This document shows, one piece after another, positions 26,101 to 57,975 of a stretch of DNA of 64,000 nucleotides. The notes under the pieces are model-generated. The model saw only the letters and a list, made by a program, of their open reading frames with translations, ran no database searches and was not told where the DNA came from. Both the position numbers and the translations under genes were made by a program. Position 1 is the first letter of the stretch, and each line of letters starts with the position of its first letter. Origin of the DNA: Geosiphon pyriformis uo1 (taxonomy: Eukaryota; Fungi; Glomeromycota); contig JAAOMT010000659.1 in the NCBI GenBank assembly GCA_016748015.1, forward strand, positions 897,166-961,165, given 5' to 3'.

Positions 26101-26577
26101 AAAACACATATATTTTTTTTGTTTAATTTAAAATAATTTTAATTAATATAATAATTTATATATTGTTTATAATATAATATATATTTTAATATATAATAAT
26201 TAAATTATTAAAAATAATTATAATTAAATTATATTTGTAAAAAATAAAACAATTTATTAAGTTATAAATATTAATTAATATAAAAAATTATTATATAAAC
26301 GTAAATTTAAATATAAAATATTAATTTAATTTAAAGTAACAAAAAAAACAAAAATTTTGCTTTTTAAAATTAAAATTATATAATTTTTTATAAATATAAA
26401 ATTTCCATATATTTTTTTTTAGTATTAATTAACAAACAAAAACAGTAGGAAAAACTTTTTTCTCTCTTTCATCCCAAATTCCTAAAAAAAAGTCAAAAGT
26501 TTTTTACAATTCAGTATAATAAATCCAAACTCTTTATTCTTAACTATAAGGCCACTGTTGGCTATAGTATTGCTGTT

Positions 26578-33049: not shown

Positions 33050-34399
33050 TGTTGTTCTGATTGGCCTGAATGGCTGGTCATGTGTGGAAAATGCATGATT
33101 CACACTTAGTTTAGATTATTTGTATGATGTATAATACTAGGCAGTATTTGGATTTCACTTAATAAACGTAAAAAAAACAAAAAAAAAACAGTATAAACTA
33201 GCAGACTTTAACTTAATATTATTATAAATAAGTATATTATATTATGTTTTATAATTTAATACTTATAATATTATTATATTATTTAAAAAATTTGATAAAT
33301 TTAAAAGTTTTTATGATTAAGTTTTTTGTATAAAAAACAGAAATTCAAATATTAATAACTTTTAATACTTATAATCTTACTTTTTTAATATAATAACTAA
33401 TTTATTCAAATGTTTTTTATTTTTTTTAATAAATATTTAATTATTAATAAATTAAATTTATATTATCTTTGTATTTTTTATTAGACAATATTTGATGTTG
33501 TAATTTTATTATTTATTTATTTTAATTAATTAGTTTAAAATAATAATAAAATAAAAGCAAAAAAAATAAAAATAAAAATAAATTTTTTATTAATAATTAT
33601 AATTAAAAACTATTGATTTAATATATTAAAATTTTTAAATATTTGTTAACAATATTTATTGTTTTTAAAAAATAATAAAAATAGAATAAGTATTTTTATT
33701 ATTTATAATTACAAATTATAAATTTTTTTGGTTTTAAATAATAATTTTATTTATTTATAGATTGAATTAAAAATAATTAAATAAGTTAAATTAATTGCTT
33801 TTTTTTGTTAAATTGTAAAATTGTTAAATATTAAATATATTTATTATTATTATTATTATATATATATAACTTTTATAATATAAGATATTTCGATATTTTT
33901 AATTATTTTTATACTTTTTTTGATTTATTATTGACATTTTTGAAATTTTTAATACTTTTAATATTTTTGAAATTCTTATAAATATTTTAAAAATTTTAGC
34001 ATTATATTATTTTATTAAATTTTTTATATAATTAACTAATATATATTAATTATTAATTCTTTTTTTCTTATAAATAACAATACTAATAACTTTATTAAAA
34101 ATACCAAAAGATTTTTTAATATTATTTAAAAAAATCTTTAAAAACATTATAAAAAATTATAATAACAAAAACAAAATTATCAAAAATTTTATAATTTTAA
34201 AAATAACCAAAAAAAATTCACAAGTTTAATTTTAACAACAATATATAATAATATTTTAAATAAAAATTTTATATAAAAAAATATAATATTGTTTTTAAAA
34301 TTTATTTTAAAATAATAAAACTAAAAATATTTTTTAAAAACAAAAAAAGTAATTAATTTTTATTTATTAATCTAATTGCTATAATTAAATAATTTAATA

Positions 34400-34996
34400 A
34401 TATGAAGCACCAAGTTACAGATTTGTTATTTGTTTTAACACCTCAAATAATTATTTGTAACAGTATTAATAATAATATATTTTTCAGTTTAATATCTCTT
34501 TAAATATATAAGTCTAATAGTATTAAAACTGATCCCTTAAAAACAGCTAAATAACTGATTAGATTGGTTTTTTATAATATATAATTATTTAATATAGTTC
34601 AAAAAATATTAACTGGATAAGTTTACTTTTATTATAGCAATATAACATAGCTTAAACTGGTTTAAGTAGCTGGTTATATGTAAAAAGCATGTAAATTATA
34701 CTTAATTTAGAATACTTAGTTTGTTTCATAGTCTTAGGTAATAATTGAACCATACTCATTAAATTTAATAAAAAAATTTTTAATTAATTATAAAAATAAA
34801 ATTAATAATTGTTAATAATAGTAGTTTCTAAAGGTTTTGAAGTCTGAAAGTTTTGGTTAAGTCTTTTGTATAATGAACAGAGGTTCAATTAATAGTTTTC
34901 TTTTATAAATTTTTTTTTTTAGCATGATAACCAGTTTATTCTAACAGTTATGTTTTTCTGATAAGCTATTCTTAAGTTTTCTACTCTTGTTTTCAG
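34400..34996. repeat. Mosaic of fragments: B/C-type LTR 3' end (34400-34462 +), LINE 3' UTR/poly(A) (~34630-34776 +), C-type LTR piece (34800-34996 -)
   Basis: Local matches to 56715-56770, 33050-33170 and the reverse complement of 36555-36659 / 56621-56700. Confidence 0.65.
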
Positions 34997-35976
34997 TGTT
35001 ACTAATGGAATTCTAGTCATTAATTAACATAAAATTACCCTTATAATTTCTATTATTAGTTAGCATATATTAATATTATTTTAATTATTACTTATTATTT
35101 AATTAAATTATCAAACATTATTATTTAATTAATAACCTAATTTGTACAATAAAAATTAAGAAAATCAAATTACACAATATTTCGAACTATTTAATATTCA
35201 AAAATTTGTAAAAATTTGTAAAAAATTCGCCAAAATAATAAATAGTTTACCAAAATAATTAATAGTTTGTAGAAATAACTTGTAGTTTGTTAAAATGTAC
35301 TTTTAGTTTGTCAAAATTATAGCAAAAAAATAGTTCAAATTTATAGACTAGTACTATAATAAGTTGTATAAAAGAAGAGTTTTTCTCTTTAAGAAAATAT
35401 ATCTTATATAATTTCAGAATTATCTTAATTTAAATTAATTAGCTTTACAAAAAGTAATAAAAAAAAAACATTGAATACTTGAAAACTAAATTCCTTAATT
35501 TTTTGCACTTGAAATTTTCCAAAAACCCAACTAACATTTTAAAATTAATTAATTACCAATTTTAGTAATCTGTTAATGACTTTAGGTTTGAACCAAAAAA
35601 CAATTCTTTTAATAAAATTCTATTTTTTTTACATTTCTCTTATTTTTTTTTATTTTTTTATTATAATCATTAGGGTAGTTTACAGACAGAATTTTTGTAT
35701 AGGAGTTAACTTTCATAGCAAAGTAACTATACATTTTTAATAAGCTTTTAGATAAGCAATTTTTAAGAAAGAGTTAATATTTACTACAATATAACTACAT
35801 AAAATAACTGGCACAGAATTAGTTATTCTACTTATAAGTTCAGTAGTTCAAATTATAGGAGATAATTTGAAGATAAATTCAATTATCAGAGATTTAACTA
35901 CTTCCTAAAAACGTGAATTCATACCAAACAGATGTTAAAAATATTTAAAAAAAGAGACCAAAAATCTCTGATAATA
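34997..35976 (+). repeat. Decayed family A LTR without internal region
   Basis: TGTTACTAATGGAATTCTAG...AAAATCTCTGATAATA, colinear with 36660-37630. Confidence 0.85.
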
Positions 35977-36659
35977 TTGGTATAAATGGTAGTCCAATTA
36001 TACATATAGATATTATTACTTATAAAAATTAAAAATTATAATAATAAATAAAATAACCAATCAAAAATAAGCATAGTAAAAAGAGGAATTGCAAGATTTC
36101 AAAATTACAAAATTGCAGAATTTTTTTCAAAAAATTTTGTATAACATAAATTATGTATATATAGTAAAAGTATTAAAAGCAAAAAAAGTAATTTCAAAAG
36201 AATTCAATAAAATAGATAAAATTTCATTCAGTTTAGAACAACAATATCTTTTCTTTCAAAAAATAATTTTCTATAACTTGAAATGGAATCATTTCCATAT
36301 TAATAAAATTATCTATTATCATCTAATCTATATTATAATTACTTGATTAAAAAAATATTAAATTATTTTACACTATTAACACTCCATGTTAATAAAATTT
36401 AATACTTTACTATACTGAATCAATAGCTCTTAATTATGGCTATTGATGAAATACTAATTTTTTATTTTTTTTTCTTATTTTTTTTTGTTTCATTTACTAA
36501 TTGATTAAAAAAATTAAACACTAAATATTTGATGTCAAAAATAGCCTGGTAAAAAACCTAGAAACAAGAGTAGAAATTTAAAGATAGCTTACCAGAAAGA
36601 CATGACTGCCAAAATAAACTGGCCACTATACTGAAAAAAAAATTCACAGAAGAAACCAT

Positions 36660-37630
36660 TGTTACCAGTAGAATTTTAGCTATTAATTAGCACGAAATTA
36701 TTTTCATAATTCCTATTATTAATTAGCATATTATTATCATTTCGATTATCACTTATTAAATTAGCCAAATTATCAAATATCATTACTCAATCAATAATCC
36801 GATTTGTACTCTAGAAATTAAGATGATCAAATTACACAATACCCTGAACCATTTAACATAGTCAAAATTCGCCGAAATTAATGAAAATTCGCCGAAATAA
36901 TCAATAGTTCAGTGAAATAACTTGTAAATTTGCTGAAATGTATTTTTAGTTCACCCAAATTGTAGCAAAGAGAAAAGTGCAAGTTCAAAGACTAGTACTA
37001 CAACAAGTTGTATAAAAGAAGAGCTTTTCTCTTCAAGAAAATGTATCCTTCCCATATCTTACTATAGTATTTTACTTTAGATATCTTAATTAGAACAAAT
37101 CACTTTTTTTACAAAATCAAATAAAAATTAAAATATTCAAAAACCAAATCCTTAAATTATTACACTTGAAATTTCTTCAACACAACTAACGTTTTGAAAT
37201 TGATTAGCTACCAATTTCAATAAACTGTTAGTGATTCCAGGCCTGGATAGAAAACGTTTCCCTTGACAGAATTCTATTTCTTTTACATTTCTTTTAGTTT
37301 TCTTTTATTTTCTTATTACAATTATTAGGGTAGCCTACAGACGAGATTCCTGTAGAAGAGTTGACTTTCACAGCAAAGTAACTACACATTTTAGTGAGCT
37401 TCCAGACGAGCAATTCCTGGGAAAGAGTTGACATTTACTACAATGTAACTACACAAAGTAACTGGTATGGAATTGGCCATTCTACTCATAAGCCCAGCAG
37501 TTCAAATTATAGGAGATAATTTGAAGATAAATTCAGTTACTGGAGGTCTAACTACTTTCTAAAAACGTGAATTTACAGCAAATCAACATTAACAACATTC
37601 AAGAAAAGAGACCAAAAACCTCTGGTAACA
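36660..37630 (+). repeat. A2 5' LTR
   Basis: TG...CA, followed by the PBS TTTGGTGCTCTCCC. About 96% identical to 55650-56620. Confidence 0.96.
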
Positions 37631-40600
37631 TTTGGTGCTCTCCCATAGAAATAACACAGCAACAACAAATTCAAAGTGGCAACCACACCAGACACAACAA
37701 CTCTAGAGTATTATCAGTCAATTTACACTCACTGCAAGCAAAGATTCAACATCCCAGACGGAATTGAGGTTGTCAAAAAATCAGTATACCAATACATTAA
37801 AAACCACATCAACAATTATCTTCTTGGAAATTACAACATCTCAGAAGTTAGAAGCAATCTTTACAATAATTTAGTGCACTATTCACAGTTGAGAACTGAA
37901 GACCTTAACAGTGAAACACTTGCCACTTACTTCCAAGAACTTAATTTTAACATTATCAAGTACTGTGAAGAAACATATCTAGTGCAGTCTCAATACTCTA
38001 TTGACTTTGAATCAGAAACAGAAACAAGCAACAAAGACAAACAAAAAGTGAAACAATACTCAAAAACCACCCCAAATACTCCAATACTACCAAAAACAAC
38101 TGCCAAACATTTGCAAACACCTGAACAAAGAACCAGTGTCAAATTACCACTTTCTATTACACCATTTCCAATTTCACTTGTTCAATCACAAACACCAAGT
38201 TCACCACTTAACTGTTTCTCCAGACCAGAAGATTATCAGTCACCTAGAAATCCTACTCAACAGCAAAAACCAATATTAACAAGTGCCAATATCATTGATT
38301 ACTTACAAGAAAACAAAAGTAATCATTCAAAGAGTCTAGAAAGTAAAGAAACTGAATCAGAACAAGAAAAAACTACAGAAAATAAAAAAGAAATGGCAAC
38401 TGCTTACATTGCAAAGATTTCAGAATTTACTGGTGAAGATAATAATACCAGTCTTCAAGAATGGCTTGACAAAGTTCAAAAAGCAGGAGATGCAAATGGA
38501 TGGAATGCAGTAAGAATGCTCAAAGCAATCTCATACTTTCTCCAAGGAACTGCAGAAGAATGGTTTGAAAACTTAGAAGAACCATTTGAAGACTGGCAAG
38601 CATTCAAAAATACTTTTTTACAACAATTTACCAATAACAACACCTCTATTACTCTTAAAAACCACTTTCGCAATATTAAGCAAAAAACATCTGAAACTGT
38701 TATGACCTATCTTGGAAGATTCAACAAACTTCTCAGACGAATTTGACAATTGGAAACCAATAACTATTATTCTGATGTTCAGATTCTGGACCAGTTTATA
38801 GCAGGATTAAAAGACAAACTAATTAAGAAAGTCCGCCCACATGCTCCAGCAAACTTAGCAACTGCTATTAGACATGCAAAGAGCTATAAAATGGCAATGG
38901 AAGAAACAAATCACACCAAGCTTGTAAACCTTGCAATTGGAAAAACCAGTTCAGCAGCTGAAGAGAAGATAGACCAATTCACAAAGAAAATTGAAAGCTA
39001 TTTTACAAACCAACAACAACAGCAACAACAACCACAAAGATATCAATCCCCACAATGACACAATCAAAACAACTTTGGATTACCATCTAACAACCAACCT
39101 CAAAATTGTTATTATTGTGGAATTTCAGGACATTAAAAATAAGATTGCAGGAAATTACAAAGAGACCAACAAAACAGGAGTAATTAACGTTACTCTTTAC
39201 TACAACAATCTTATTACCAATCTCTACCACCAACTTATTACTTACCAAGACCACAAAACCAAAACAATTACTATCAACCAGCTCCACAGCCAATACAGCA
39301 ACAATATTAGCAACTTTTACCAATTCAACAATATCAGACACTACCCATTCAACAATATCAAGTACCAGCCAGAAAATTGGTTCAACATAACCAATTTACA
39401 CACCAAAATTAATTTCAGAATAACAACAACAGAATCAATCCAAATAACCAGTTGGTTTCTCAAAATTCTGGTCAGCAAAGACCAATCACTATCCCACTCA
39501 ACCCAGTTATCTTACAATGTCTGAAGGATCGGATTTTCAACAACCTGCACTTTTTGAAGGTGAAGCTGCAGTACCAAAACAAAACTCTTATAACAATACA
39601 ATCCCACCAGCCCAAATTGCTCAAAATACCAACCTCTCAAATATATTCCCATTCGAATTTGAAGCAAATGAATCACCATTCTTGCTCAGTAATGCAGCAG
39701 CTAATGAACGAAAAGCTATCACTGTCATATACACTGAAGCTACAGTAGAAGAAAAACCCATCTGACTAATTCTAGACAGTGGATTAGCCAAAAGTATTAT
39801 CACCTACCAATTAATACAACAGCTTCAAAGAACTGTTGACAGACCAGCCCAAACTGTAATTGTTACAGCAGATGGTATGAAAAAGACACCAGTAAGAGAA
39901 ATTGACAATTTCTCATTTACCATTGATGGAATCACTATTCCAGTCAAAGTTTTAGTCATGGATGCACCCCAATACCAAGCTTTGGTTGGAAATGATTGGC
40001 TTCTTAAGACCAATGCAAACTTAGATTGGGAAACTCAAGAACTAAAAATCTTATACCAAAAACAATACACCATAGTACCTGCTACTTGTGATACTTTCAA
40101 CAAATGATCAGAAAAAGCCCCAGTATTTGAATTTGAAGAGAAAAAGGAAATGCCACTTATTAAAACCTACATGGCTCTTGGATTAACATCCAATTGGGCT
40201 GAGGAAACAGAACAAAAGATTTTTGAAGAATCAAGAAGATAGAAGAAAGTTAGATATTCTACACCAGAATCATGGAAACAACCACTCTATATTCCACTCA
40301 AATACAAAGATTGCAACAAGAAACTTTCATCAATGGGAGCATGTATTTCTTCAAAAGAGGAATATGAAACTCATACCTGTTAATTTTGCAAAACATGCCA
40401 TAAAGAACGATTTGGATATCCTAAAAGAAGTAGAAAATGGGACAACACTCCTTGCCTTACATGTGGGGATATATTACCAGAAGAATGCAACTGGATTGAT
40501 GTTGCAATAAGAGGAGGAGTATGTGATCAGACTTGTCAATATGCTCTATCAATTTCAGAAAAAGTCAGAAGAGGAACACCATTTAATGCAGCATACAACA

Positions 40601-41090
40601 ATGCTTTCAATAAACTTTACCACTACCCTCATAATGCTGAAATGATTTTTGACTTAGCAATGGCATTGATTAATAGAGCCACCCAAGAAGATGTCTGCTA
40701 AATGAAAGAAGCTGAATACATTGAGTATACTATAGAATTAGCTGGATTTGATTATGAAGATGAAATAGAAACCTACTACCAAATTGCAAGTCATACATAC
40801 CCAACCAAAGAAGCTCAAATTCAACAATTAGAGCAAATAAACATTCAATTGTGTGAAGAATGTATTATGCCTTGTGATAACTAATAGTGTTTAGAATGTT
40901 ATGCTCTTAGCATTCCTCTGCCAGATGAAAATGATGAAAATGAAATCGAATTTGGAGTATCTGAACTAGTAGAAGAACTACCAACCATTCCTATCTATCT
41001 TCTTAAAAAGCAACCACCTCTACAACTTAAATATTTTGACAACCATGGCCAAGGAATCAGACCAGAAAAAGCACACAAAATTGATGCTGG

Positions 41091-41928
41091 TGTTACAGGT
41101 GACTATTTCTGTTGTTGGATTAAATAAAAAAACCTGTAACTTGGTGCTCAAATCTAGTTGCCATTAATAGTGATCTGAAGGTTTTGTATCTGAAGATTTC
41201 GGTTAAAGTTCTTTGTATAATGGACAGAGATTCAATGGTGATAGTTTTATCCGTAGCTTTCCAAAACCGCAGTTTTGTCAATTTTTTTCTCAGCTTGATG
41301 GCTGGTATTCCCCCTGGTAAGTTATCTTCAATCGAGTGTTTTACCCTTATTCCTGGGTCTTTTACCAGTTATGTTTATCCTGACATCAGTGCCCCATGCA
41401 TTAATCCTCAATAGAGTTAGTAAACAACAATAAAATCAAAGCAAGAAAATAAAGAAGAGAAAAGAAAATAAAGAATGAAAAGAAATAAGCCAAGGCAATT
41501 TGTAAGTTTAGTATTCCGTTAATAGCCATAATCAAGAGCTATTGTTCTAGAGTAGTTAAGTATTGATTACTATTAACATGAAGTATTGATAGTGGAAATG
41601 GATTTGAGATAACAAATAGTTATTTATTAAATGATTGTGATTTTAAGAATTGTTTAGATTAAATCTAAACTTGAGAGGTCTGTTTTTTTAGCTTCTAATC
41701 CTACTGCTATATATACATAATTGAGATTTCTCAATTTCTCAATTCTTTGCAACAGGAATCCTGCAATTCCTAATGAAAAGAATCCTGGAATTCTGGAATC
41801 CTGTGATTCCTCGTCAGGGAATCCTAAAATTCTTGGAATCCTAAAATTCCACATTTACTATGTCTACATCTGATTGGCTAATATCTACTGACTAATAATA
41901 CTATATTTCTTATATTCTATGAGTAACA
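41091..41928 (-). repeat. B 3' LTR (838 bp)
   Basis: TGTTAC...GTAACA, direct repeat of 50350-51147. Confidence 0.95.
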
Positions 41929-41941
41929 TTATTCCCTCCTT

Positions 41942-42571
41942 TTAATATTGAGCTCCATCAAAATCTAATTCTTTTAATTCCCCTTCTTGAATTATTTCTT
42001 GAACTTCTTTTTTGAGGATTATTTGTGTTATTTTAGTTTGTAGTTTTTCAAATTGGGCATTGGTTATTTTTCCTAATTGATTACTCATAACTGTATCTAT
42101 TGCTGTGTTGAGTAAAATTTCTGGTCAGTCTTGAAATCTCATATATAGCCAGTAAATGGCTCAAGCTTGTGTGGTTAGATTGTTCTTTTCTACAAATTGT
42201 TCCAGTTGTCTCAGTATTGTTGTGTCAAATAACCGTTTTGTTTTGTCGGTGTACAAATTCTGGATATTTACGTGTTGTTCCAAGTGAAAATGACAATATT
42301 TTTTTGGAAATTGTTGCATCCATCAAGTCCAAGTTTTTCTGATAAGTTCTTGGTGTAATTCGACTATTTGTTGTTCTTTTATGGCCAATTTTATCTTGGT
42401 CATGATCTTGTCAACAATATTTTCAAGTCTTTTCTGTGCTTTGTGTTGTGGTATCTTTGCCATATTTTTGTAACAAATGGTTTGTTAATTGATTGTAATT
42501 TTTATCTCCTGGTGTTGGATTAATTGAAAAATTTGTTGGGCTAGTGAATAGATATTGTCTGTAATTTCCAT
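41942..42571 (-). pseudogene. B ORF3, uncharacterised ~209-aa protein between integrase and 3' LTR
   Basis: One frame MEITDNIYSL...LDFDGAQY* with four internal stops, each explainable by CAA>TAA or CGA>TGA. Homologous to A2 ORF3. Confidence 0.8.
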
Positions 42572-42625
42572 TTTTCTGATCTCTTTTGTCACGTCAACCA
42601 TGTTCTTATATATTCTTTTGTCGAT

Positions 42626-44007
42626 CAATTGGACATGTTATTGTCAATGATAATGATTGGTTCCAGATCTTATGGAATCTCATCTGGTTGGACTAGTATT
42701 CTCTGTATTCCTAATTGTGAAATATTACTGGTAGATGATGATGCTATATGGTGGTATGGTTTCAATCAATCTCCATGTGCTGCTTTGGTCAAGATTTTGT
42801 TATTCAATCTTAATTTGTAAGCTCCATTTTCTAAAATTTCTTCTATGTAAAATGGTCTGTTCTATTTGGGGTCAAATTTTCCACTCCATTGTTTTTCTGC
42901 TTTGGTACAATGTAAGAGTACTTTGTCTCCAATCTTGAATTCAACTGGTTTGTCTGGTAGTTGATTATCATGTCTTTCTTTCTGCTTTTCTTGTGACTTT
43001 TGTATATTATCAGCTGCTCTTTTTCGTTTGTTTTCCAATGTTTCCATTAAGTTATATGTTCTTCTTAACAATGTTTCTTGGAAATTCTCTTTTGTTATTG
43101 GTTCAGTTGGATATGTGGTAACCTCTATCTCAACTGGTAATATTGCTGTTCTACCATATATCAATTCAAATGGTGTTGCTTGTGTGGTGTCTTGCTTCAT
43201 TGTCCAATAAGCTAATAATACTGATGATATGAACAAATTCCATTTGTCTTGGTTTTCTTGGCTGAGTTTCACTATTGTTTTACACAATGTTCTATTAAAT
43301 CTTTCAACTAATCCATTGGTCTGTGGATGGTATAGTAATGATAGTGGTCTCTTAATTCCAAATCTTTGGCTTAGTTCTGCTAATGTTCTATTTACAAAAT
43401 GGGTTCCTTGGTCTGATAATAGTTCTTTTGGACATCTATGTCAACAAATCAAATCTTGATGGACAAATTTAACAATGAATTCTGCATCTGCTCTTTGAAT
43501 TGCTTTTGCTTTTGGCCATTTCATAAGGTAGTCTATGGCTACTGCAATATATCTGTTGCTTCTGCTGGTCATTGTCAATGGTCCGACTAAATCAATTCCA
43601 ATGCAGTCAAATGGTTGTCCCACTTTGATTGGTCTCAATGGTTCACTGGGTCTTGTTCCTTTTTTTCTTTGACAAGCATCACAATTTTGCACATATTGGA
43701 TGATGTCTGGATACATTGATGGCCAATAGTATCTCTTTCTGGTTCTTTCTATGATTGCTTCTTTATGAAAATGTCTTGCAGCTGGATCTGAGTGCATGTT
43801 AAACAGTATTGTCTCTTTTTTTGGTTCTGTAATTACTCTGGTTGGTTGATCTGAATCTTTTCTATTTTTCTGATAAAGTATATTTTGGTGAGTGATAAAA
43901 TATTTGGATTGTTGTTTGATCCTCTTTTGTTCTGATTGAGATAATTTCTCCTTGAACTGTTGAGTATCTATATAATGTTGAAATTGTTGATATTTTTGTG
44001 TGTTCAT
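42626..44007 (-). pseudogene. B integrase (HHCC, DDE, GPF/Y motif; no chromodomain), separate ORF
   Basis: MNTQKY..., H.....H...CDAC, IGIDLVGP, SDQG, NGLVERFN, (W)NRPFYI..L.NGAYKL. Confidence 0.92.
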
Positions 44008-44066
44008 CTTTTGTTATATTTTCGTGAGTCTTGTTTTGGTTGTTATATTTTTGAGTTGAAATGTTC

Positions 44067-47000
44067 TTAGATTTGTCTCATTCATGACAAACTGTCAGCA
44101 TTTCTATTGTCTTTTCCCTTTTTATAATGTATAGTATAATTATATGACGAAAGTGCCATTTTCTATCTTAACTGTCTTCCGTCTCCAAATTTTTGTTTTT
44201 GGAGTGATGTCAATCCTTTGTGATCTGTATACATCTCAAACTTTTGGCTCAAGTATTCTTTCTATTTCATAACTGCCCAGTATATCGCTAAGTGTTCTTG
44301 TTCTAGTGTTCCATAGTTCTTTTCAGCTGGTGTTAAACCTCTGCTGGCATATGCTATTGGATGTTTTCTGCTGTCTGGTCCTTTCTGAGATAGTACCACT
44401 TCTAATGCTTGGCCAAATGCATCAGTGGTGATAATGAATGGTTTGCTGTGATCTGGATAGATCAATACTAGAGCTTAAATGAGCTTTCTTTTCAAAATAT
44501 CAAAAGCTTCTTGTTGACTTTCTGTCCATTCATATTTTGTATTCTTGGTTTGCAGTTGGTTGAGTGGCTGCACTATCTTGGAAAAGTTCTTGATAAAACA
44601 TTGATAGTAGTTGGCAAATTCCAAGAATAATTTCAGTTTTGTCATATTGGTCAGCACTGGAAAGTTCTTTACTATCTCTATTTTCTCTGGATCTGTTTTG
44701 ATGCCATCTTTGCTGACTATGTGTCCCAAGAATTTTAGTTCTGTCTTGCCGAAAAAACACTTTGTTGCATTCAATTTTAATCCTGCTTGTCATAGTCTTT
44801 CAAATACTTGTTGGAGATGATGTAAATGATCATCAAATGTTTTTGAAAACACATTGGTATTATCCAAGTATACAACTACTGATTTTCACAATAAACTGGT
44901 GTACACAATTTCTATTAGCCATTGGAATGTAGCTGGAGCATTGGTTAAGCTAAATGGCATAACTTCAAACTCAAAGTTTCCTTCTCTTGTGGTGAACGCC
45001 GTTTTTTCTTTGTTGGCTGGATCCATGACTACTTATTAGTAACCACTATCCAAGTCTAATATTGAGAACCATTTGTTTCCACTGAAAGCATTGAATAATT
45101 CTTGTATCCATGGAGTTGAATAACTATTTCCACAAGTTACATCATTAAGTTTTCTGTAATCTACACAAAATTGGATTTTTCCATTCTTTTTTCGGACGAG
45201 TACTACTGGTAATGACCATGGGCTCATAGATGGCTGAATTAGCCCATTGTCAAGCATTTGATTGATCTCTTAACAAATGATTTCATGGCTGGCTGGTGGT
45301 ATTTTATATGCTCACTGTTTGATTGGCATTGTATCTTCAGTCTTGATTTGATGTTAGATGATGTCAGTTCTGCCGAATTTGTTTTCATTGGCAAAGATGT
45401 CATTGAAATTGTTGAGTAACATCTTGAGCTGTATACATTGTAGTGGGTCTAAATTTCTCATGTTCATTTGTTCTAATTGTTCTGGTTGGAGCAAATAACA
45501 TTTGTCTCGTCTATAAATTGTTTGTAATGTGATGTTGACATATTCACAAAATTGTGGAAAGTCTAGAATGGGGTTTGGTGGTTGGTTTTCTATTTCTGTG
45601 ATTAAATATCTGATGGTGGTTCCTTCTGATATGTTGATGACATTGCCAGTGTTATTGTAGATGGGAATTTTTATGTGGCTATAGCTTTTAGCTGATATGT
45701 GGAGATTGATCAGTCCAATCTCTCCTAATTCACAAAGGTTTGCTTCAGCTTCAAAAATCTGTTCTTGCTCCTTTTTTTTCTTTTTTATTGCTAGCATGTA
45801 CTGGCTAAATGATGGAATGAAAATAGCTTGACTGGTTAAAATAATTTCTTCTTGGCCAATAATTTCTTCCTCTGCCATATTAACTGGTACATCTATTTTA
45901 TCCATTGACCCAAATCCCTGTATCCCTCTTATTGTTATTCCTAACTCTTCCCTATTTCCTACTAATATTAACTGAGCTATCTTAACCAAAGGTAAGAATA
46001 TTGCCTGTACTATCTTTTTGTTTGGCTCTATTATATAGGTCTTTTTTGAGTCATTTTGTAGTATGGCAATGATATTTCCTACATATCCCGTGTCAATTAT
46101 TCCTCCTCTTATATTAATCCCTCTTTTTGCTAAACTACTCCGGAATGCTAGTTGAACTATTGTTGTTGCTGGGATTTCCAGTGCTATTTTCAGATCAATG
46201 CAAGTGCATGAATGTGGTTCCAATTTGATAGCATTTTTTCTTGGATACCTCAAATCAAATCTGGCATCAGTATCATGCATGCATTCTGACATAATACTTT
46301 CATTATTATCGCTGAACCATTTCAGTTTTTGTTTCTTGGTGAGGTCAGAAAGTGCAATATATTGTTCATAGTTTGAGTCAGAGTTTGAATTTGAGTTGAT
46401 ATTGTTATCATTGTCATTGCTATTTTGAATGGAGCTGGAACCATTATTCTCGTCATCATCATTGTCGGAGTTTAAATCAGGATTGAATGGTAATTTCAAC
46501 TTCAATGCACAGCTGCTGATTGGTTCTTCCTCTTCAGGGATCATGTAGATCATCCATGGTGGTGGATTGTAAATGAGGTCACAATCGTTACAATATTCAA
46601 AGTCACTGGAAATTAAACAATGGTGACACAGTCTTGTATTCAACTGTGCTAGCTGTTGTTTTTGCTCCTCTCTAGTGGGTGCCAAGTTTTGGTAGTGTTC
46701 ATGAAATTCTTCTGGTTCTAGGAAGTTTATGACTGGCTCTGCATCTCAGTTAAGCTCGATGGGTTCTGGTGGGTTGTTTTTAATTATTCTGATTTCTTCT
46801 GGCAACGTGCCTTCAATTTTGGTGATTGCCATTTGCCATAATTCATCATCATCGTGTGAACAACTGTCCAATCACTGTACAGCTCTTTTCCAGACGGCTT
46901 CTATTGGTGTTTCTTTCTCGACCTAGTCACTGATGAGGATTGTGTATTGGTAGAAAATGTTGCACATTCCTCCTTTCCCAAGAATGTCGTTCCACATTCC

Positions 47001-50000
47001 TTCATTGAAGAGAGTTTCTCCACAGGCTAAACATAGTGTATTATCCCATTTTCCCACTCATTTTGGTCTTCCAAAACGTTCGACAAGGCATGTGTGGCAA
47101 TAGAACTTGGTTGCTGTCTGATATTCTTCATTGTCGCCACAGCATGTGCCCATTGACAACAATTTCTTGCCACAATCAATACACACTAGTTTGAATCAGC
47201 GATAAGTGAATTGTTGTGGTGTTGTGTGTTGATAGGAAGTATACGTGTTTTTTGGCAGTGGCTCTTCTTTTTTTGCTTTTCCTTTTCCTTTGTTGCTTTT
47301 TTCCCATTCCCAGCTTGGTGTCAATTCCCTTTTATTGTTGTTGATCCAGATCAAGTCATCCATTTCCCAGGTATGTTCTTCTGTTTCTGTTCCTTTTCCC
47401 TTTACATTGTTCTTTTCTTCCCAATCTAGAATTGGCAGTAGCTTGTTGTGCTCGATGTCAGCTCATAATACTTGGTACGCCTCCCAAGTAGGCTTTGGTT
47501 TTTCCTCTTCGAAATTGATAAGCAGCATTGATGACATAATGTTGTTAGGTTTGAAATGGCCACACATGGCTGGTACTTGCATGTATTGGCCATTTTGGCT
47601 GAGTTGGAGTTCCTGTGTGTTCCAGTCAAACATTGCGTTGGTTTTAAACAACCAGTTGTTGCCAATGAGAGCTTAGTATTAAGTTGCTTCTATTACTAGT
47701 ACCTTGATTGGTACAGTAATGCTGTTGATTTCAATAGGTAGATTGTTAATCTCACCAATGGGAGTTTTGGTTGCTCCATTGGCTGTTATGATTCTGGTGC
47801 TGGCAGCACAATTAATTTAGTGACCTAATTGGTCCATGAGTTGTCATGTGATAATGCTGCCTGCTGACCCACTATCAAGAATGAGTTTGATAGAATGGCC
47901 ATCAATTTTTGGCATCAGTATACATCGCTATGATGGGTTTTTCCTCAATAGCAACTTCACTGAACAAAAGAACTTCTGATGTTTCCTCAATTTCAAATGA
48001 AAATATGGCTGTGAGTGACTTGTTTTCTGTAATGGTGGCTGGTGAGATATTGCTGGTAAGTGTTAATTGTAGGTTGGTTTTCAGTTCATTGGGTTGGACA
48101 TCTTCTGGGGTAACCAGAAGACTTAAATAGTTCTGGAAATTTGGGTTTTAGATGGAACCGGTACCCGAATTCCACTGTTGAAAGCCTGATGGTTGGTGAA
48201 AGAAGCTGGGAGTCAGTTGATGTACAACCATCACCAATCTCCAGTTTTGAGTGATTCTAGATCTTGGGTTTTCTAATGTCATTTGAGTGGGGTTTTGGGG
48301 TGGCATTTGAATTGGTTGTTGGGGCTGATAAATTATTTGGGGTTGCGGCTGATAGATTACTGGTGGCTGTAGTTGATAAATTGGAGGTTGATATACTGGT
48401 AGTTGATAGATTGGTTGTTGTGTCATTGGCAAGTAAGTGGTTTGATATTGGTCTTGATTTGGGTAGCAATTTTGAGTCTGAAATCTGTAATCAGGGTTTT
48501 GATATTGATTTTCCGATCATGAATAGTTGCTATAAAATCTGCAGTCTGCTTTTATGTGTCCTTGTTTACTACAGTTGTAACAAACATGTGTTTCTGGCTG
48601 CCATGACTGATTAGGTGCTGCTGATAATGGATGTGACTGATTTTGGAAATGATTCGCATTTCCTGGATTATTGCGTCATTTTAGTAGTTGATAAATGGTG
48701 TGATTGTCAGCTAAGTATCTTTCTAATTTCTGATTAATTGAATCACTGAATTGTTTCAATTTGGAATCCAATTCAGATGATCCATTCATCACTAAGTTTA
48801 CAGCATGGGTGTGATTGGCTTCTAATTCGGCAGATTCAAAATCTCTGGCATATGTGACTGTGTTCTGGAGAGTGGCTGGATGCAATGGGCATATGTGTTG
48901 TAGGATGCTACTGCACAGATCACAAATGAATTGATTGAGAATTTGTGGTGCTATGAAATAATTAGTATCAATTGCTTGGATTTGTCGCAGATTTCTATGG
49001 AAGCATCTCAAATATGTGGTAACTGCTTCAGTTTCTTCTTGTTTAATTGTAGTGAAAGTGTTGGCTAATCTGTTGATACTGTTGTTATTGCTAAAATATC
49101 TCAAAAATTCTAGTTTGAAGGCATTAAAATCTTGGAGTTTGTTAACCAGGCTTTGATACTATGAGTCTGCTGTATTCTTGAGAAAATAGGGTATGGCTTG
49201 CATGACTCTGGCATCATTCTATTCATTGGCTGCAATGGCTTTTTCTATATTGTTTAGCCAAACTTGTGCATTGTTTTTTTCACTGGTGAATTTGTCGAGC
49301 TTTACGATTGGTGCATATGCTATTTGTTGTTGTTGCTGTGGTAGAAGTTGTTGTTGTTGTTAAGGCAGTACTGGGGGTAGTTGTTGATTTTGTTGATTTG
49401 GTGTTTAGATGGGCTGGCCAATTGGTTCAACTGGTGGTTAATTGATGATGATAACTGGAGGTAAGTGCTGATTAATTACTTTGGGGTTTTGATTTTGCGG
49501 TGCTTGAATATTTGGGGTTTTGATTTCTGGATTTTCTTGCTGAGTTTGAACATTCGGGGTTCCAAATTCCAGGTTTTCAAGGATCGGGTTTTGGTAAGTA
49601 AATTCTTGATCTTTCAATTCCTCTTCCTCTTCTTCTTCAGATAGTTTTCACGGGGTAGCAGTTCCAAAGTCTGGTTGAGACGGCAGTGATTGAATTCCTA
49701 ATGATGTTGGTAATCATGATTTAAATCCTTCAAAATATTTGCCTTATGGTCCTAATAACTCCTGCTTTTTTTTGTTTACTTTGGAATGAAAATTGTCCAA
49801 ATGTTGATGTCACGTTTGGTGTGAACATGCCTGCAGATGAAATATTGATAGTGCTTCTGAGTGTGTAATGATATGATGAATATGGTTGAGATTCAATTCT
49901 TTGTTTCTTTCAGATTGGTAGTTGTATCTCTTTAGGCATTACTGCTGGTGTTTGTAACCTTCTTTTGCCTTTATCTGCATAGGTGATAGGAAATTGTTGT

Positions 50001-50287
50001 TGAGTGTACCTTTCAATAGTTTGGTTGATTTCTCTAATTATTGATGTGAAACTATAGTTCCTTGGTAAGTTGGTGTGTTGATATAATTTTGTGTAAAAGT
50101 TTTCTCTTGCTGCTTCAATGTTAACTGTTCCTCCTAAGCATTTAGTGATTTTGTCATTGACATAGAAGTTGAAGACTAATTCGGTTGGGTAATGATTACT
50201 GTTTAATCCTAATTGTTGGCTGTATTGTTGAAACAAAGATTTCGCAAATCCTAAATGGTTTGCTCCTATATTTTCTGATTCTGCCAC
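44067..50287 (-). pseudogene. B gag-PR-Cys-rich-dUTPase-RT-RNase H
   Basis: CYNCSKQGHIKADC, LILDSGSAGS, dUTPase ARFDL / RSS / GGIIDTGYVG / QGFGS (in 45354-46685), RT PWS.PVVLVRKK, FCVDYRKLN and YLD(D), RNase H IITTDA...PIAYASR. Confidence 0.92.
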
Positions 50288-50349
50288 TTTTGGTTTGTTC
50301 TTGTTGATGCTAGTTCTCTGTAGGATTATACCTCACAGGGAGCACCAAA

Positions 50350-51147
50350 TGTTACAGGTAACTATTTCTGTTGTTGAATTAAATAAAAAAACCTCTAACT
50401 TGGTGCTTAAATCTAGTTGCCATTGATAGTGATCTGAAGGTTTTGTATCTGAAGGTTTCAATTGAAGTTCTTTGTATAATAGACAGAGATTCAATGGTGA
50501 TAGTTTTATCCATAGCTTCCCGAAACCACAGTTTTATCAATTTCTTTCTCAGCTTGGTGGCTGGTATTCTTTTTGGTAAGCTATCCTCAATCAAGTGTTC
50601 TATCCTTATTCCTGGGTCTTTTACCAGTCACATTTATCCTGACATTAGTGCTCCGCATGTTAATCCTCAATAGAGTTAGTAAACAACAATAAAATCAAAG
50701 CAAGAAAATAAAGAAGAGAAAAGAAAATAAAGAATAAAAAGAAATAAGCCAAGGCGATTTGTAAGTTTAGTATTCTGTCAATAGCCATGATCAAGAGCTA
50801 TTGTTCCAGAGTGGTTAAGTATTGATTACTATCAACATAAAGTGTTGATAGTGGAAATAGATTTGAGATAACAAATAGTTATTTATTAAATGATTGTGAT
50901 TTTGAAAATTGCTTAGATTAAATCTAAACTTGAGAGGTCTGTCTTTTCAGCTTCTAATCCTACTGCTATATATACATAATTAAGATTTCTCAATTCCTCA
51001 ATTCTTTGCGACAGGAATCCTGGAATTCCTGAAATCCTGCAATTCTTCTAAGAGAAATCTTAGAATTCCACACTTACTACGTCTACATCTGATTGGCTAA
51101 TATCTACTGACTAATAATATTATATTTCCTATATTCTATAAGTAATA
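50350..51147 (-). repeat. B 5' LTR (798 bp)
   Basis: Adjacent to the PBS. 40 bp shorter than the 3' LTR in a GGAATCCT-type tandem array. Confidence 0.95.
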
Positions 51148-53427
51148 CTGGATATGATCTAAGATACCCAGGAAAAGATACTTTAGTTCTCCAACCAAAG
51201 TCCTTGACAAAAATCAATCTCAAAATTGCTCTTGAAATATTACTAGGAGCAATAGTTCAAATTGTCTCCAAATCATCATTGGCAAGCAAAGGAATCAATA
51301 TTAGAGAAGGAGTTATAGATGCAGGATATACTGAAGACATTACCATCATGTTGCAAAATAAAACAGACAAACCATTCAAGATTGAACATGCTGAAAAAAT
51401 TGCTCAAGCAATTTACCTACCCTTAATTAATATTTTGGGTCTACAATCAGTTAACAACAGAGAACAATTGAGAAAAAATGAAAGAAGAATGCAAGGTTTT
51501 GGTTCAACTGGACAATTTACAGTTCCAATAAACATAGCCCTTAATATACAAAATGAATCTCACCAGATTCTTTAACTTCTCCAACCAATTACCATTTCAC
51601 TTTTTGGAGAACATTACAAAATTTACACTTGCTTAAAACCCACTATTACTCAACAAATCTTTGAATCCAATGAACAAATCTGTTTGAAGTATGAAATCTC
51701 AATTCCAAACGTTTATATTCCCAAAGGAATGAAAAAATTTTGAGTTACATTCTATAATCCCAATAATTACTCTATTGTATTATTAAACAAATTAGAAATT
51801 GGAATCATACACAGCAATATTTTTCAAGATAAAAACTCTCAAATTGTCTCTAATTTTATCGAAATTATAAGGCACACTCTACTCCCAAATCCAAATATCA
51901 TTTCCACCACTGAAAACTATTATTTTTTGGAAGAAAAACTCTCTTAAATCAACATGGGTCCCTTAGAACCTCAACAACAAAGACAATTAAAACAATTGAT
52001 AGCTGAATTTGCAGATATATTTGCAAAAGACAACAATGACCTGAGAAAAACGGATATTATTCAACATCAGATTCATACAGGAGATGCTCCACCAAAACAT
52101 CAGCAAGCTTACAGAGTGTCACCTGCCAGCCACCAATTCATCAGAGAAAAAGTCCAGAGAATGCTCAATAATAGATTGATTTAATTATTAAAAAGTCCTT
52201 GGGCCTTACCAGTAGTCCTTGTTAAAAAGAAAAATGGAAAAATCAAATTTTGTGTTGACTATTGCCAATTGAACAATATGACAATTGGAGATGCCTATCT
52301 TCTTCCAAGAATTGATGACATGCTAGATGTTCTAGAAAAAGCCAAGTTCTTCTCAACTTTAGACTTGGAAAGTAAATACTGGCAAGTCGAAATAGACCCA
52401 AAAAACCTACCCAAAACAGCATTTACCACCCAGGAAGGAAACTATGAGTTCAATATTATGCCTTTTGAACTTTGCAATGCATCAGCAACATTCCAGCAAC
52501 TTATGGATGTTGTATATGAAGGACTCTTATGGCAATCAGTAATTGTCTATCTTGATGACACTGATGTATACTCACCAAGCTTTGAAGCTCACCTCATTCA
52601 CCTACAAGAAGTTTTTTAACAATTATGGAAAGCAGAATTAAAGTTAAACATTGAGAAATGTCACTTTGGAAAAACAAGCTTAATCTTTCTTGGACACATT
52701 GTGAGCAAAGATAGAGTTAAACCAAACCCTGGAACAATCAGTGCTGTCAAAAACTTCCAAACTCCCAAAAATATTACAGAGCTATGAAGATTTGTAGGAT
52801 TAGCCTCCTACTATTGGAAATTCATCAAAGAATTCTCAGAAATTGCCAAACTACTTAATTATCTTACCAACAAAAATGTGCTATACAAATGGGTGGAAGA
52901 ACAACAAAAAGCTTTTGAAACTCTCAAAACAAGATTGACAACAGTTCCAGTTCTTGCTTACTCAGATTTCAACAAATAGTTCCAACTAGCCACTAATGCT
53001 TCACATATAGCATTTGGTGCCATCCTATCACAATTAGATAAAAATGGCCAGAAACAAGTCATTGTCTATGCCAGTAGAACATTCAAGCCAACAGAACTCA
53101 AATATGGCTCAACTGAATTGGAAGCTGTTGCAGTTATTTGGGCTCTTAAACATTTTCAACAATATCTGAAGAATGGAAAAAAATTTGATATCATAACTAA
53201 CAATATTGGTCTTAAATGGCTTAATAAAAAGAAAACTGAACAAAGTATCAAACAGTCTTAATGGAATAACTTTTTAGCAGACTACAAATATATTGTACAC
53301 CACAAACCAAAAAAACTACACACTAATGTTGACAGTCTCTCAAAAATAAAACAATATTAATACCAACATTAACACCAACAAAACACCAACAAACTTAACA
53401 GCAAAACAAACAACAAAATCAACAACA

Positions 53428-54813
53428 ATGAATCCAGAAAACTACAACAACATTAAAAACTATTTGGAGACTTTCACCATGTCAGAAAATTGGTCTCCAA
53501 GTGAAAAACATCGATTACAACACCAATTCAAACAATATTTTATACACCACAACAAAATCTATTACAAAAATTGTAAAAACCCAAACCAATCACTCAGATT
53601 AGTACAGGAAAATGAAAATGAAACAATTCTATACAACATGCACACAGATTCTTCTTCAGCACACTTGGGAAGAGATGAAACAATTCAAAGAACTCTTGAA
53701 CATTATTTTTGGCCTCACATGTAAAAAGACATTTAATAATATATAGAATTTTGTGATAGTTGTCAAAGAAGAAAAGAAATTCACTCCACAGAACCTTTAA
53801 ATCCAATCAAAGTTGGACAACCTTTTGACAGAGTTGGAATTGATTTAGTCGGACCATTATTTATTACAATTCAAGAAAATTGCTATATTGCAGTAGCAAT
53901 AGATTATCTTACCAAATGGCCTGAAGCTAGAGCCATTCAAAGAGCAGATGCAAAATCAGTAGCAAATTTTATCTATAAAGACATTATTTGTAGACATGAA
54001 TGCCCAATTGAACTTTTATCTGATCAAGAAACACATTTTGTAAACAACTTGATACAAAAAATTTGTGAATAGTTCAATGTCAAAAGACCTTTATTATTAC
54101 CTTATCACCCTCAAACAAATGGACTTGTAGAACATTTCAACAGAACATTGTGTGAATCTTTAGCCAAAGTTTCAACAAATTTTGAGCAGGAATGGGATAT
54201 CTTTATTCTATCAGTGTTACTAGCATACAGAACACTAAAACAAGATACTATGAAACACACACTATTTAATCTTACTTATGGAAGAACAGCAACACTACCA
54301 ATTAATTTCACAGTGGAAACATACCCAATACAACCAATCAATAAAGAAAACTTTCAAGAAACACTCCAAAGAAGGGCCTACACTTTTCTTAGTACACTAG
54401 AAAGAAAAAGAAGGATAGCAGCAACTCATATTGAATATTCCCAAGCTCAACAAAAAGAAAGACATGACAACAAATTACCACCTATTACCAATGAATTTAA
54501 AGTTGGAAATAAAATTCTCTTACACAGAACTAAGGCTGAAAAACCATGGAATGGAAAATTTGAAAACAAATGGGATGGACCATTTTATATTCACGAAATT
54601 TTAGGCAATGGATCATACAAGTTAAGACTTGATGACAAAATACTAGCAAAAGTTGCACATAAAAACAGATTGAAACACTATCATTCCAAAAACAATCCTA
54701 AATCATTAATTTCACAAATTGGTATACATTCTTCTTTAATTAATTCTGAAGATATTCCCCAAAATTTAGAACCAATAATTATAATAGAACAACAACCAAA
54801 CTTGAACACTTAA
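53428..54813 (+). pseudogene. A2 integrase (HHCC, DDE, GPF motif), separate ORF
   Basis: MNPENY..., MHTD...AHLG...CDSC, VGIDLVGP, SDQ, NGLVE, WDGPFYIHEILGNGSYKL. Confidence 0.92.
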
Positions 54814-54963
54814 TTCAACATAATTTTACAATAATCTTTTAATAACACACAAAGACAAAAATAGTATATAATTACAAAAACACCCAAACCCAAAAACAAA
54901 TAAAACCCCATATCCAAAAATAATTTCTTTATTCTCCCTTTTTATTAATTAGTCAATTTTATC

Positions 54964-55669
54964 ATGATTATTCCCCAAAATATTTAACAAATATTCCAAA
55001 AATTAATGTTAGCTTTGAAAACACTTCCTGACTTGTCCATAACGATTAATGGAAGTCAAATTAAATACATTCAGAAAGAAATCACAGCCCCAATAGTAAA
55101 TAATTCTCAAAACTATCACCTTTATAGAAAAAAAACAAGAAGTCACTCTGGAAATAGATTACCAGAACTTTTGAAGCAAGCACTAAAAGAAAACTTTTTA
55201 ATTGCTCCTATTGACATTCTACCAAATATCACATTGCAACAAAAACTTTTACTATTCCTCAATGAATAGAACAATGAATATACCCCTATATATAGATATT
55301 TTCACATGGAAAAAACACTTTATAAACGAAAACTAAAACTTAAAGCAACCAACATCACTCCTGAGACTACAAAAACAAATTCACAATGAATTTAAGGCAG
55401 CAGCTGGACCAACAAATACTTGCTACAAACTTAGAGCAGCTTTTAGACTCTATAATTTGTTCAACACTTGTGAAAAGGTCCTACAAAATCCAATACTGCA
55501 ACCAATAAAAGTTCAATACATTGGCAAACTCACAGAACTGAAATTTCAACAATTTTCAGACCAAATCACTTCAATTATTCTGGACCATTATCTTGACATC
55601 ACAGATAGTGCTTGGACTTCGATGGAGCTCAGTCTTGAGGAGGAGATTATGTTACCAGTAGAATTTTAG
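54964..55669 (+). pseudogene. A2 ORF3, uncharacterised, homolog of B ORF3
   Basis: MIIPQNI*QIFQKLML... in frame with ORF 55006-55269. One frameshift at ~55372 leads into ...RAAFRLYNLFNTCEKVLQ (ORF 55457-55669). Confidence 0.75.
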
Positions 55670-56620
55670 CTATTAATTAGCACGAAATTATCTTCATAAT
55701 TCTTATTATTAATTAGCATATTATTATCATTTCGATTATTACTTATTAAATTAGCCAAATTATCAAATATCATTACTCAATCAATAATCCGATTTGTACT
55801 CTAGAAATTAAGATGATCAAATTACACAATACCCTGAACCATTTAACATAGTCAAAATTCGCCGAAATTAATGAAAATTTGCCGAAATAATCAATAGTTC
55901 AGTAAAATAACTTGTAAATTTACCGAAATGTATCTTTAGCTTACCCAAATTGTAGCAAAGAGAAAAGTGCAAGTTCAAAGACTAGTACTACAACAAGTTG
56001 TATAAAAGAAGAGCTTCTCTCTTCAAAAAAATGTATCTTTCCCATATCTTACTATAGTATCTTACTTTAGATATCTTAATTAGAACAAATCACTTTTTTT
56101 ACAAAATCAAATAAAAATTAAAATATTCAAAAACCAAATCCTTAAATTATTACACTTGAAATTCCTTCAACACAACTAACGTTTTGAAATTGATTAGCTA
56201 CCAATTTCAATAAACTGTTAGTGACTCCAGGCCTGAATAAAAAATGTTTCTCTTAACAGAATTCTATTTTTTTTACATTTCTTTTAGTTTTCTTTTATTT
56301 TCTTATTACAATCATTAGAGTAGTCTACAGACAAGATTTCTGTAGAAGAGTTGACTTTTACAGCAAAGTAACTACACATTTTAGTGAGCTTCCAAACAAG
56401 CAATTCCTGGGAAAGAGTTGACATTTACTACAACATAACTACACAAAGTAACTGGCACGGAATTGGCCATTCCACTCATAAGCCCAGCAGTTCAAATTAT
56501 AGAAGATAATTTGAAGATAAATTCAGTTACTGGAGGTCTAACTACTTCCTGAGAACATGAATTCACAGCAAATCAACATTAACAACATTCAAGAAAAGAG
56601 ACCAAAAACCTCTGGTAACA
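55650..56620 (+). repeat. A2 3' LTR
   Basis: Preceded by the PPT and followed by TSD CCAT. Confidence 0.96.
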
Positions 56621-57013: not shown

Positions 57014-57975
57014 TATTATCAGAGATTTTTAAGATCTCTTTTCTTTAATATTTTTAATGTTTGTATGTTGTGAATTCATATTTCCAGAAAGTAGTTAAAT
57101 CTTTGATAACTGAATTTATTTTCAAATTATCTTCTATAATTTGAATTGTTGAACTTATAAGTAAAATGGCCAATTTTGTGTTAGTTATTTTATGTAGTTA
57201 TGTTGTAATAAACATTAACTCTTTCTTAGGAATTGTTCATCTGGAAACTTACTAAAAATGTGTAGTTACTTTGTAGTAAAAGTCAACTTTTTTACAGGAA
57301 TCTCATCTGTAGGTTACTCTAATGTTTATAATAATAATAAAAAATAATAATAAAAGAAATAAAATTTCATTAAAGAAATTGTTTCTAGTTTAGGGCTAGA
57401 ATTACTAATGGTTTACTAAAATTGGTAGTTAATCAATTTCAAAACATTAGTTGGGTTTTCAGTAAATTTCAAGTATAATATTTTTAAAAAATTTATTTTT
57501 TGAAATATGCTTTTTATTTGATATAAAAGTATAGATATTATTGTATAAAAGGATAAATTTAAAATAAAATACATTTTTTTAAAGTGAGAAGCTCTTCTTT
57601 TATATAACTTGTTATAGTACTAGTTTATAAACTTGAACTTTTTTCTTTACTATAATTTTGACAAACCAAAGATACATTTCAACAAATTACAAGTTATTTT
57701 GATAAACTATTAATAATTTTGGTAAACTATTCATTATTTTGGTGAATGTTTTACAAATTTTGGCAAATTTTTGAATACTACATAATTTGAGATATTGTGT
57801 AATTTGATCATCCTAATTTCTATTGTACAAATCAAGTTATTAATTAAATAGTAATATTCAATGATTTAATAAAATAATAAGTAATAATTGAAACAATAGT
57901 AATATATGCTAATTAATAATAGAAATTATAAAGATAATTTTATGTTAATTAATAGCTAAAATTTTATTGGTAATA
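57014..57975 (-). repeat. Solo family A LTR inserted in element C gag
   Basis: Reverse-complement match to the A LTR. Flanks TTGT/CTGC (4-bp TSD with two C>T changes). C gag continues across it. Confidence 0.85.

What the first reader, a model, noticed from the sequence alone, without database searches (positions are those of the whole stretch)
41942..42571. Conserved unknown ORF3 in the env position of two divergent Gypsy families
Seen: both families carry a ~210-230 codon sense ORF between integrase and the PPT (B 41942-42571 -, A2 54964-55669 +). The ORF track misses it in B and splits it in A2. The LTRs and PBSs of the two families differ, yet the proteins align: MEITDNI/MIIPQNI, IKITIN.QTICY/LSITINGSQIKY, YCHFHLEQ/YRYFHMEK, and (R)AIY(R)LYMRFQD.PEILLN...NQLGKITNAQFEKLQTKITQIIL / RAAFRLYNLFNTCEKVLQN...QYIGKLTELKFQQFSDQITSIIL. 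There is no signal peptide or TM segment, so it is not an Env. Inference: a selected, soluble, helical accessory protein, for example a DNA-binding regulator or an anti-silencing factor.
Basis: partly seen in the sequence, partly recalled or inferred. Interest (0 to 1): 0.8.

Follow-up and report, generated by a model that had tools for sequence, protein, structure and literature searches.

The report
Accessory gene of fungal Gypsy retrotransposons
Two dead, nested jumping genes in this fungal DNA each carry, after their integrase, a broken copy of the same extra gene, found in at least eight diverged versions and matching no family in the libraries searched; its small protein is predicted to be soluble and helical and likely binds the element's own DNA or RNA to regulate it.

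Summary
The gene is real; both window copies are broken. B (41942-42571, minus) has four in-frame stops. A2 (54964-55669) has two stops and a frameshift, and it runs through the PPT into the 3' LTR. All 108 B-type and 68 A-type hits are Geosiphon pyriformis gene models, many unbroken. The A and B profiles align end to end (E 7e-6, 23% identity). Searches gave eight sequence groups, mostly 17-37% identical. Two come from unnamed metagenomes; in one an unbroken copy follows a Gypsy integrase. Synonymous sites are saturated while pN is 0.44-0.57 (null about 0.71), so the protein was under purifying selection. The model (pLDDT 75; core mostly 85-97) is helical, with no membrane segment and no clear fold or family match. 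A basic linker and a basic helix after an invariant G-x-x-N turn recur in all eight groups, and most have an acidic tail. A nucleic-acid-binding regulator is therefore likely but untested. Neither a TATA box nor a splice acceptor is conserved. It is not Env. This scan noted similar genes three times before on other DNA.

The parts
41942..42571 (-). ORF3 of element B, 209 aa plus stop, broken by 4 in-frame stops (first bases 42487, 42325, 42163, 42127); upstream in-frame ATG at 42601
   Evidence: profile hit iE 4e-74
54964..55669 (+). ORF3 of element A2, about 235 codons, broken by 2 stops (54985, 55267) and a frameshift near 55367; ends inside the 3' LTR
41091..51147 (-). Gypsy element B (gag, protease-like region, dUTPase, RT-RH, separate integrase, ORF3), inserted in A2's dUTPase region with a 4-bp target duplication CTGG
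50350..51147 (-). B 5' LTR; PBS follows at 50349-50338
41091..41928 (-). B 3' LTR; purine tract just before it (about 41943-41932)
42625..44007 (-). B integrase frame with its own ATG (44007), 62 nt after the first base of the RT-RH stop (44069); broken
36660..56620 (+). Gypsy element A2, interrupted by B; 4-bp target duplication CCAT
36660..37630 (+). A2 5' LTR; PBS follows at 37631-37645
55650..56620 (+). A2 3' LTR; purine tract at about 55637-55646, inside ORF3
53428..54813 (+). A2 integrase frame with its own ATG (53428), 70 nt after the first base of the RT-RH stop (53358); broken
54925..54952 (+). Pyrimidine tract plus TAG before A2 ORF3: candidate splice acceptor, not conserved in B or L001
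42605..42612 (-). TATA-like box 41 nt before B ORF3 ATG; not above chance (P 0.11)

Best explanation
This is a conserved accessory gene of a Gypsy retrotransposon lineage, broken in both window copies, whose predicted soluble helical protein likely binds nucleic acid of its own element, most likely LTR DNA, and would act in trans as a regulator that promotes the element's expression. Shown: position after integrase, homology across eight groups, purifying selection, no membrane-length hydrophobic stretch, conserved basic linker and basic helix. Predicted: a short helix plus beta-hairpin at the N-terminus, a disordered linker, a compact helical core (about residues 80-210). Inferred: the helix after the invariant G-x-x-N turn contacts nucleic acid, the basic linker helps binding or nuclear import, the acidic tail recruits host machinery, and the N-terminal module may dimerise. 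How the gene is expressed is open. The gene's reality is about 0.95; nucleic-acid-binding regulator about 0.5; DNA rather than RNA about 0.3 overall.
For: 108 of 177 and 68 of 84 candidates hit, all Geosiphon gene models. 29 of the 39 A-type rows aligned run through without a large gap (39 of 68 hits were given). Profile-profile E 7.1e-6. Eight groups at 17-37% identity (Aa-Ab 68%) share the same majority residue at 15 positions, among them Y110, G116, G149, N152, F167, L174. Unbroken 230-aa copy after RT-RH and integrase in metagenome locus L001. Family E models are joined to the integrase tail. Codon position 2 is the best conserved in 8 of 8 comparisons. pN 0.44-0.57 against null 0.70-0.73; pS 0.62-0.74, at null level. 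Model pLDDT 75.4, pTM 0.64. Linker 39-64 net +2 to +5 and turn-helix 149-167 net +2.2 to +4 in 8 of 8 groups; tail acidic in 6 of 7 groups scored. Highest 19-residue hydropathy 0.27-1.29 in 6 of 6 natural copies.
Against: No known nucleic-acid-binding family is matched and fold scores stay at background (best Z 5.4 and 5.7). Overall pI varies from 5.4 to 9.3. ORF3 diverges about 2.5 times faster than integrase (dN 0.76-0.88 against 0.33-0.37), and the two comparisons limited to the N-terminal half with window copies give weak ratios (0.72, 0.79). Groups C and D have only 1-3 partial rows, and their genomic position was not seen. The dN/dS null used only 3 shuffles. No conserved promoter or acceptor explains expression.
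Confidence: 0.45

Rival explanations
1. It binds the element's RNA rather than DNA: it exports unspliced RNA or controls translation of the downstream frames, as CERV or retroviral Rev do.
For: The same basic patches fit RNA. These elements have several separately starting frames (integrase has its own ATG in 3 of 3 elements), which would need RNA-level control. CERV is a precedent in a Gypsy element (PMC10309623). The top wide-search row is a PNPase helical segment (Z 5.4, rmsd 2.2, 59 aligned; background level).
Against: No Cys-rich finger (1-2 Cys). No splicing evidence. CERV is 517 aa, shares exons with gag and has a G-protein-like domain.
Confidence: 0.2
2. It is a protein-binding suppressor of host silencing (methylation or RNAi).
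For: Fast evolution relative to integrase. CpG depletion (observed/expected 0.15-0.23) and mostly transition changes among copies suggest methylation pressure. LTR elements cover 41.2% of the G. pyriformis genome (PMC11952901).
Against: No match to any silencing factor. Nearly all copies seen are heavily mutated, so any protection was incomplete.
Confidence: 0.17
3. It is a structural or chaperone partner of the particle or of the separately made integrase.
For: It lies directly after a stand-alone integrase that cannot be packaged as part of a Gag-Pol fusion and so may need an adaptor (inference). The N-terminal module has conserved hydrophobic residues but low monomer confidence.
Against: No direct evidence. 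No capsid-like fold among the listed fold rows.
Confidence: 0.13
4. It is a neutrally carried captured gene or a chance frame.
For: Both window copies are broken; pairwise N-terminal similarity is at chance.
Against: Kept in eight groups at 17-37% identity with saturated synonymous sites. At the 4 of 6 stop sites visible in the tables, most laid depth has another base (82%, 89%, 60%, 99%), so those stops are copy-specific decay.
Confidence: 0.03
5. It is an Env or membrane fusogen.
For: Position only.
Against: No hydrophobic segment above 1.29; soluble helical model.
Confidence: 0.01

Closest known systems
Sense additional ORFs between pol and the 3' LTR (aORF-3S; Vicient and Casacuberta 2020, PMC7264820, parts 1-2 of 3 read)
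   Same: Position, sense orientation, presence across copies, unknown origin.
   Different: The review's sense examples are plant and insect env-like ORFs, some with membrane segments and splicing. This one is fungal and has no membrane segment.
'add. ORF' and dUTPase-bearing fungal Gypsy elements such as PosPlaTy3-5 (PMC2864245, passages)
   Same: dUTPase between protease and RT; an extra ORF of unknown function is drawn for some fungal elements.
   Different: No sequence comparison was possible. The paper's fungal focus is chromoviruses; no chromodomain was listed for the stop-free integrase pieces scanned here.
CERV of C. elegans Cer1 (PMC10309623, abstract and passages)
   Same: A non-Env accessory protein of a Gypsy element; a functional precedent for a regulator.
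   Different: 517 aa, spliced with gag exons, Cys loop, G-protein-like domain; none of these is seen here.
ORF3 types of bdelloid dUTPase-bearing LTR elements (env, DEDDy, GDSL, CC, TM; PMC5408684, passages)
   Same: dUTPase-bearing elements with a non-Env third ORF.
   Different: No nuclease, esterase or membrane features here; different host kingdom.

Membership tests
Ty3/Gypsy LTR retrotransposon (host elements) | Paired LTRs with target duplication, PBS and PPT | tested here: met
Ty3/Gypsy LTR retrotransposon (host elements) | gag, then RT-RH before integrase | tested here: met
   Pfam Retrotrans_gag, RVT_1, rve and Integrase_H2C2 in this order; RNase H and protease read by eye from translations
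Ty3/Gypsy LTR retrotransposon (host elements) | Placement in a named clade on an RT tree | not tested
   no reference RT set was fetched
aORF-3S (positional class) | Sense ORF after pol, next to the 3' LTR | tested here: met
   A-type frames extend into the LTR
aORF-3S (positional class) | Present and conserved in many copies | tested here: met
   the fraction of elements carrying it was not measured (no genome)
Env / env-like ORF | Transmembrane segment | tested here: not met
   highest 19-residue hydropathy 0.27-1.29 in 6 of 6 copies; the usual cut-off of about 1.6 is recalled
Env / env-like ORF | Signal peptide | tested here: inconclusive
   no dedicated predictor; the N-terminus has no strongly hydrophobic stretch
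Env / env-like ORF | Spliced subgenomic mRNA | not testable with these tools
   needs RNA reads
Helix-turn-helix DNA-binding proteins | Tri-helical HTH fold by structure match | tested here: inconclusive
   sigmaF fragment 1l0o_C Z 4.6, rmsd 2.3, 57 aligned on model 103-166; ParB DNA-binding domain Z 4.0, rmsd 3.4, 60 aligned; both at background
Helix-turn-helix DNA-binding proteins | Sequence-specific DNA binding | not testable with these tools
   bench test
CERV | Cys-rich loop and G-protein-like alpha/beta domain | tested here: not met
   1-2 Cys; helical core

The most novel reading that the evidence does not exclude
A fungal Gypsy lineage is organised like a complex retrovirus: gag-pol, a stand-alone integrase and one or two accessory genes. 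ORF3 is a self-encoded transactivator or anti-silencer with an undescribed fold, and it helped LTR elements expand to about 40% of the Geosiphon genome.
Probability: 0.2. Interest if true: 0.8.

Novelty: new variant of a known kind. Interest (0 to 1): 0.5.

Why it matters
Extra ORFs after pol are a known class, but few have a function and the known sense examples are mostly env-like. This one is a defined, foldable protein family with natural unbroken copies and invariant residues to mutate, so the question 'what do non-Env accessory genes do for a fungal retrotransposon' becomes directly testable. Practically, well over a hundred 'hypothetical proteins' in the G. pyriformis annotation are copies of this transposon gene.

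Tried and rejected
No genome held. Pfam: nothing over cut-off for the three window pieces, and no family matched more than 4 of 34, 4 of 39 or 2 of 20 members. PHROGs: at most 2 of 20. PDB sequence search: best E 0.028, none. Fold from the B-only alignment was unusable (pLDDT 40). Foldseek: no match at E 0.001 or better in PDB or BFVD. VIA-align best Z 5.4 and 5.7; absence does not show a new fold, and the N-terminal module was barely tested. P0250 is a low-complexity repeat and was dropped as a false hit. Internal TATA promoter: chance of at least one match by shuffle is 0.11, 0.54, 0.77 and 0.79 for the 4 spacers, and the A2 box is copy-specific (another base at 54867 in 26499 of 26611 depth). 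Splice acceptor not conserved. No RNA holder listed. Viral and prokaryote collections gave no relative of ORF3 or of this integrase; one search gave two weak 31% matches, not followed. Paper searches (listings only unless cited) showed no description of this family. The Geosiphon genome paper (recalled) was not listed, and Repbase, GyDB and all supplements were not seen; they may describe it. I recall multi-copy helical hypothetical proteins in Rhizophagus and Gigaspora gene sets with a similar spacing of motifs; none appeared among the named hits, so this is an untested lead.

Full report
Setting. The window is AT-rich repeat DNA. No genome is held. Every named hit of both ORF3 queries is a Geosiphon pyriformis gene model (108 of 108; 68 of 68), so the window most likely comes from this fungus or a close relative. 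A published survey gives 41.2% LTR content for it (PMC11952901, passages). Element B (41091-51147, minus) sits inside element A2 (36660-56620, plus). Both have paired LTRs, a 4-bp target duplication, a PBS and a PPT. Pfam finds gag, dUTPase, RT and integrase domains in Gypsy order.

The observation. B's frame 41942-42571 has four in-frame stops. A2's has two stops and a frameshift near 55367, and it runs through the PPT to end 20 nt inside the LTR. Pairwise, the C-terminal block aligns at z 7.8; the N-terminal part is at chance. Family profiles align over 185 columns at 23% identity, probability 84%, E 7.1e-6. Each family's HMM also scores members of the other above 20 bits (18 of 68 and 6 of 108). 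The breaks are copy-specific decay: at the four stop sites visible in the truncated tables, 60-99% of laid depth shows another base. Natural unbroken copies exist, such as P0006 (209 aa) and 29 of the 39 A-type rows aligned.

Breadth. A profile search of 1.84 billion representatives returned 92 proteins. Of 18 looked up, 15 were Geosiphon and 3 unnamed; one of those three is a repeat artefact. A diverse profile returned 55 of 3133 candidates: 53 Geosiphon and 2 ENA. Together they form eight groups (Aa, Ab, B, C, D, E and two metagenome groups) at 17-37% identity, apart from Aa-Ab at 68%. L001 shows RT-RH, integrase and an unbroken 230-aa ORF3 crossing the PPT into an LTR-like end. L002 shows an apparent integrase tail, read by eye, another 137-codon frame, then a partial ORF3. 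Family E gene models are joined to the integrase tail. The position of groups C and D was not seen, nor directly that of Ab.

Selection. Second codon positions are the best conserved in all 8 pairwise comparisons. In profile-guided alignments pS is 0.62-0.74, equal to the shuffled null (0.62-0.71, 3 shuffles), while pN is 0.44-0.57 against 0.70-0.73. Nominal dN/dS is 0.29-0.51 for the three full-length pairs and 0.44-0.79 for the three N-terminal-only pairs; dS is saturated, so the ratios are rough. Integrase gives 0.26-0.30 with much lower dN. ORF3 was constrained as protein but evolves faster than integrase.

Protein. A 96-row alignment gave a model with mean pLDDT 75.4 and pTM 0.64: a helix and beta-hairpin (about 60), a disordered linker, and a confident helical core. 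Six natural copies have no membrane-length hydrophobic stretch and 1-2 cysteines, which excludes Env. Fifteen positions keep the same majority residue in all or all but one group, among them an aromatic-Gly helix (Y110-G116) and a G149-x-x-N152 turn before a helix. The linker and that turn-helix are basic in all eight groups; the tail is acidic in six of seven. Family and fold searches gave nothing above background. Some weak fold rows are nucleic-acid binders (sigmaF fragment, CHD1 C-terminal domain, Orc6, ParB, PNPase), but at Z 4-5.4 they are only leads.

Expression. I tested two ideas. Expression is unresolved. Because integrase also starts at its own ATG in three of three elements, reinitiation or separate transcripts are both plausible.

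Mechanism. I commit to a nucleic-acid-binding regulator acting in trans on its own element, most likely at LTR DNA (0.45). Rivals are an RNA export or translation factor (0.2), a protein-binding anti-silencer (0.17) and a particle or integrase adaptor (0.13). All functional steps are inferred from anatomy and charge.

Comparison and novelty. By position it is a sense additional ORF as reviewed for plants (PMC7264820, parts 1-2 of 3). Fungal elements with dUTPase and an 'add. ORF' have been drawn before (PMC2864245, passages). CERV (PMC10309623) and bdelloid ORF3s (PMC5408684) are functional or positional precedents but differ in anatomy. Eight paper searches showed no description of this family, with the limits given under Tried and rejected. 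Three earlier notes of this scan describe a similar gene on other DNA; sequence look-ups did not link them to these proteins, so I cannot confirm they are the same family, and they are not independent support. Verdict: a real, selected, undescribed accessory protein family of a known positional kind; interest 0.5.

Noticed in passing
window 44069-44007 (-), 53358-53428 (+); L001 772-801: RT-RH stops right after RNase H and integrase has its own ATG behind an A/C-rich, G-poor spacer; the stop-to-ATG offsets (62, 70, 27 nt) fall in three different frames. Earlier notes e1-9950148 and e1-7557141 report the same split.
   Followed up: partly
L002 398-811: A further 137-codon sense frame lies between the apparent integrase end and the ORF3 homologue, so that family may carry two accessory genes.
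   Followed up: no
window 41946-41958 (-), 55622-55632 (+); L001 about 3090-3100: The DNA motif GGAGCTCA just upstream of the PPT is kept in all three elements but read in different frames in B and in A2/L001: likely a cis signal overlapping the end of ORF3.
   Followed up: partly
window 41091-51147 inside 36660-56620: The inner element's LTRs are more diverged (734 of 794 columns, 92.4%) than the outer element's (930 of 971, 95.8%), opposite to insertion order; almost all differences are transitions. LTR dating is unreliable here.
   Followed up: no
window about 45354-46400 (-) and A2 equivalent near 40100-41000: A Cys-rich, acidic region of several hundred residues lies between protease and dUTPase; no Pfam family was listed for the part scanned.
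   Followed up: no
window 1-4736 (-): A second A-type copy (86% to A2's 5' half); its 3' half, where ORF3 would be, lies outside the window. It holds an assembly gap with a 246-nt exact duplicate.
   Followed up: no
window about 26400-33100 (+): A degenerate element with an RT domain, probably a non-LTR retrotransposon.
   Followed up: no
window 21961-22635 (-): SPRY-domain frame, probably a host gene.
   Followed up: no
window 8081-9080, 34994-35978, 57014-57978: Further A-type LTR-like copies at 66-80% identity, probably solo LTRs.
   Followed up: no
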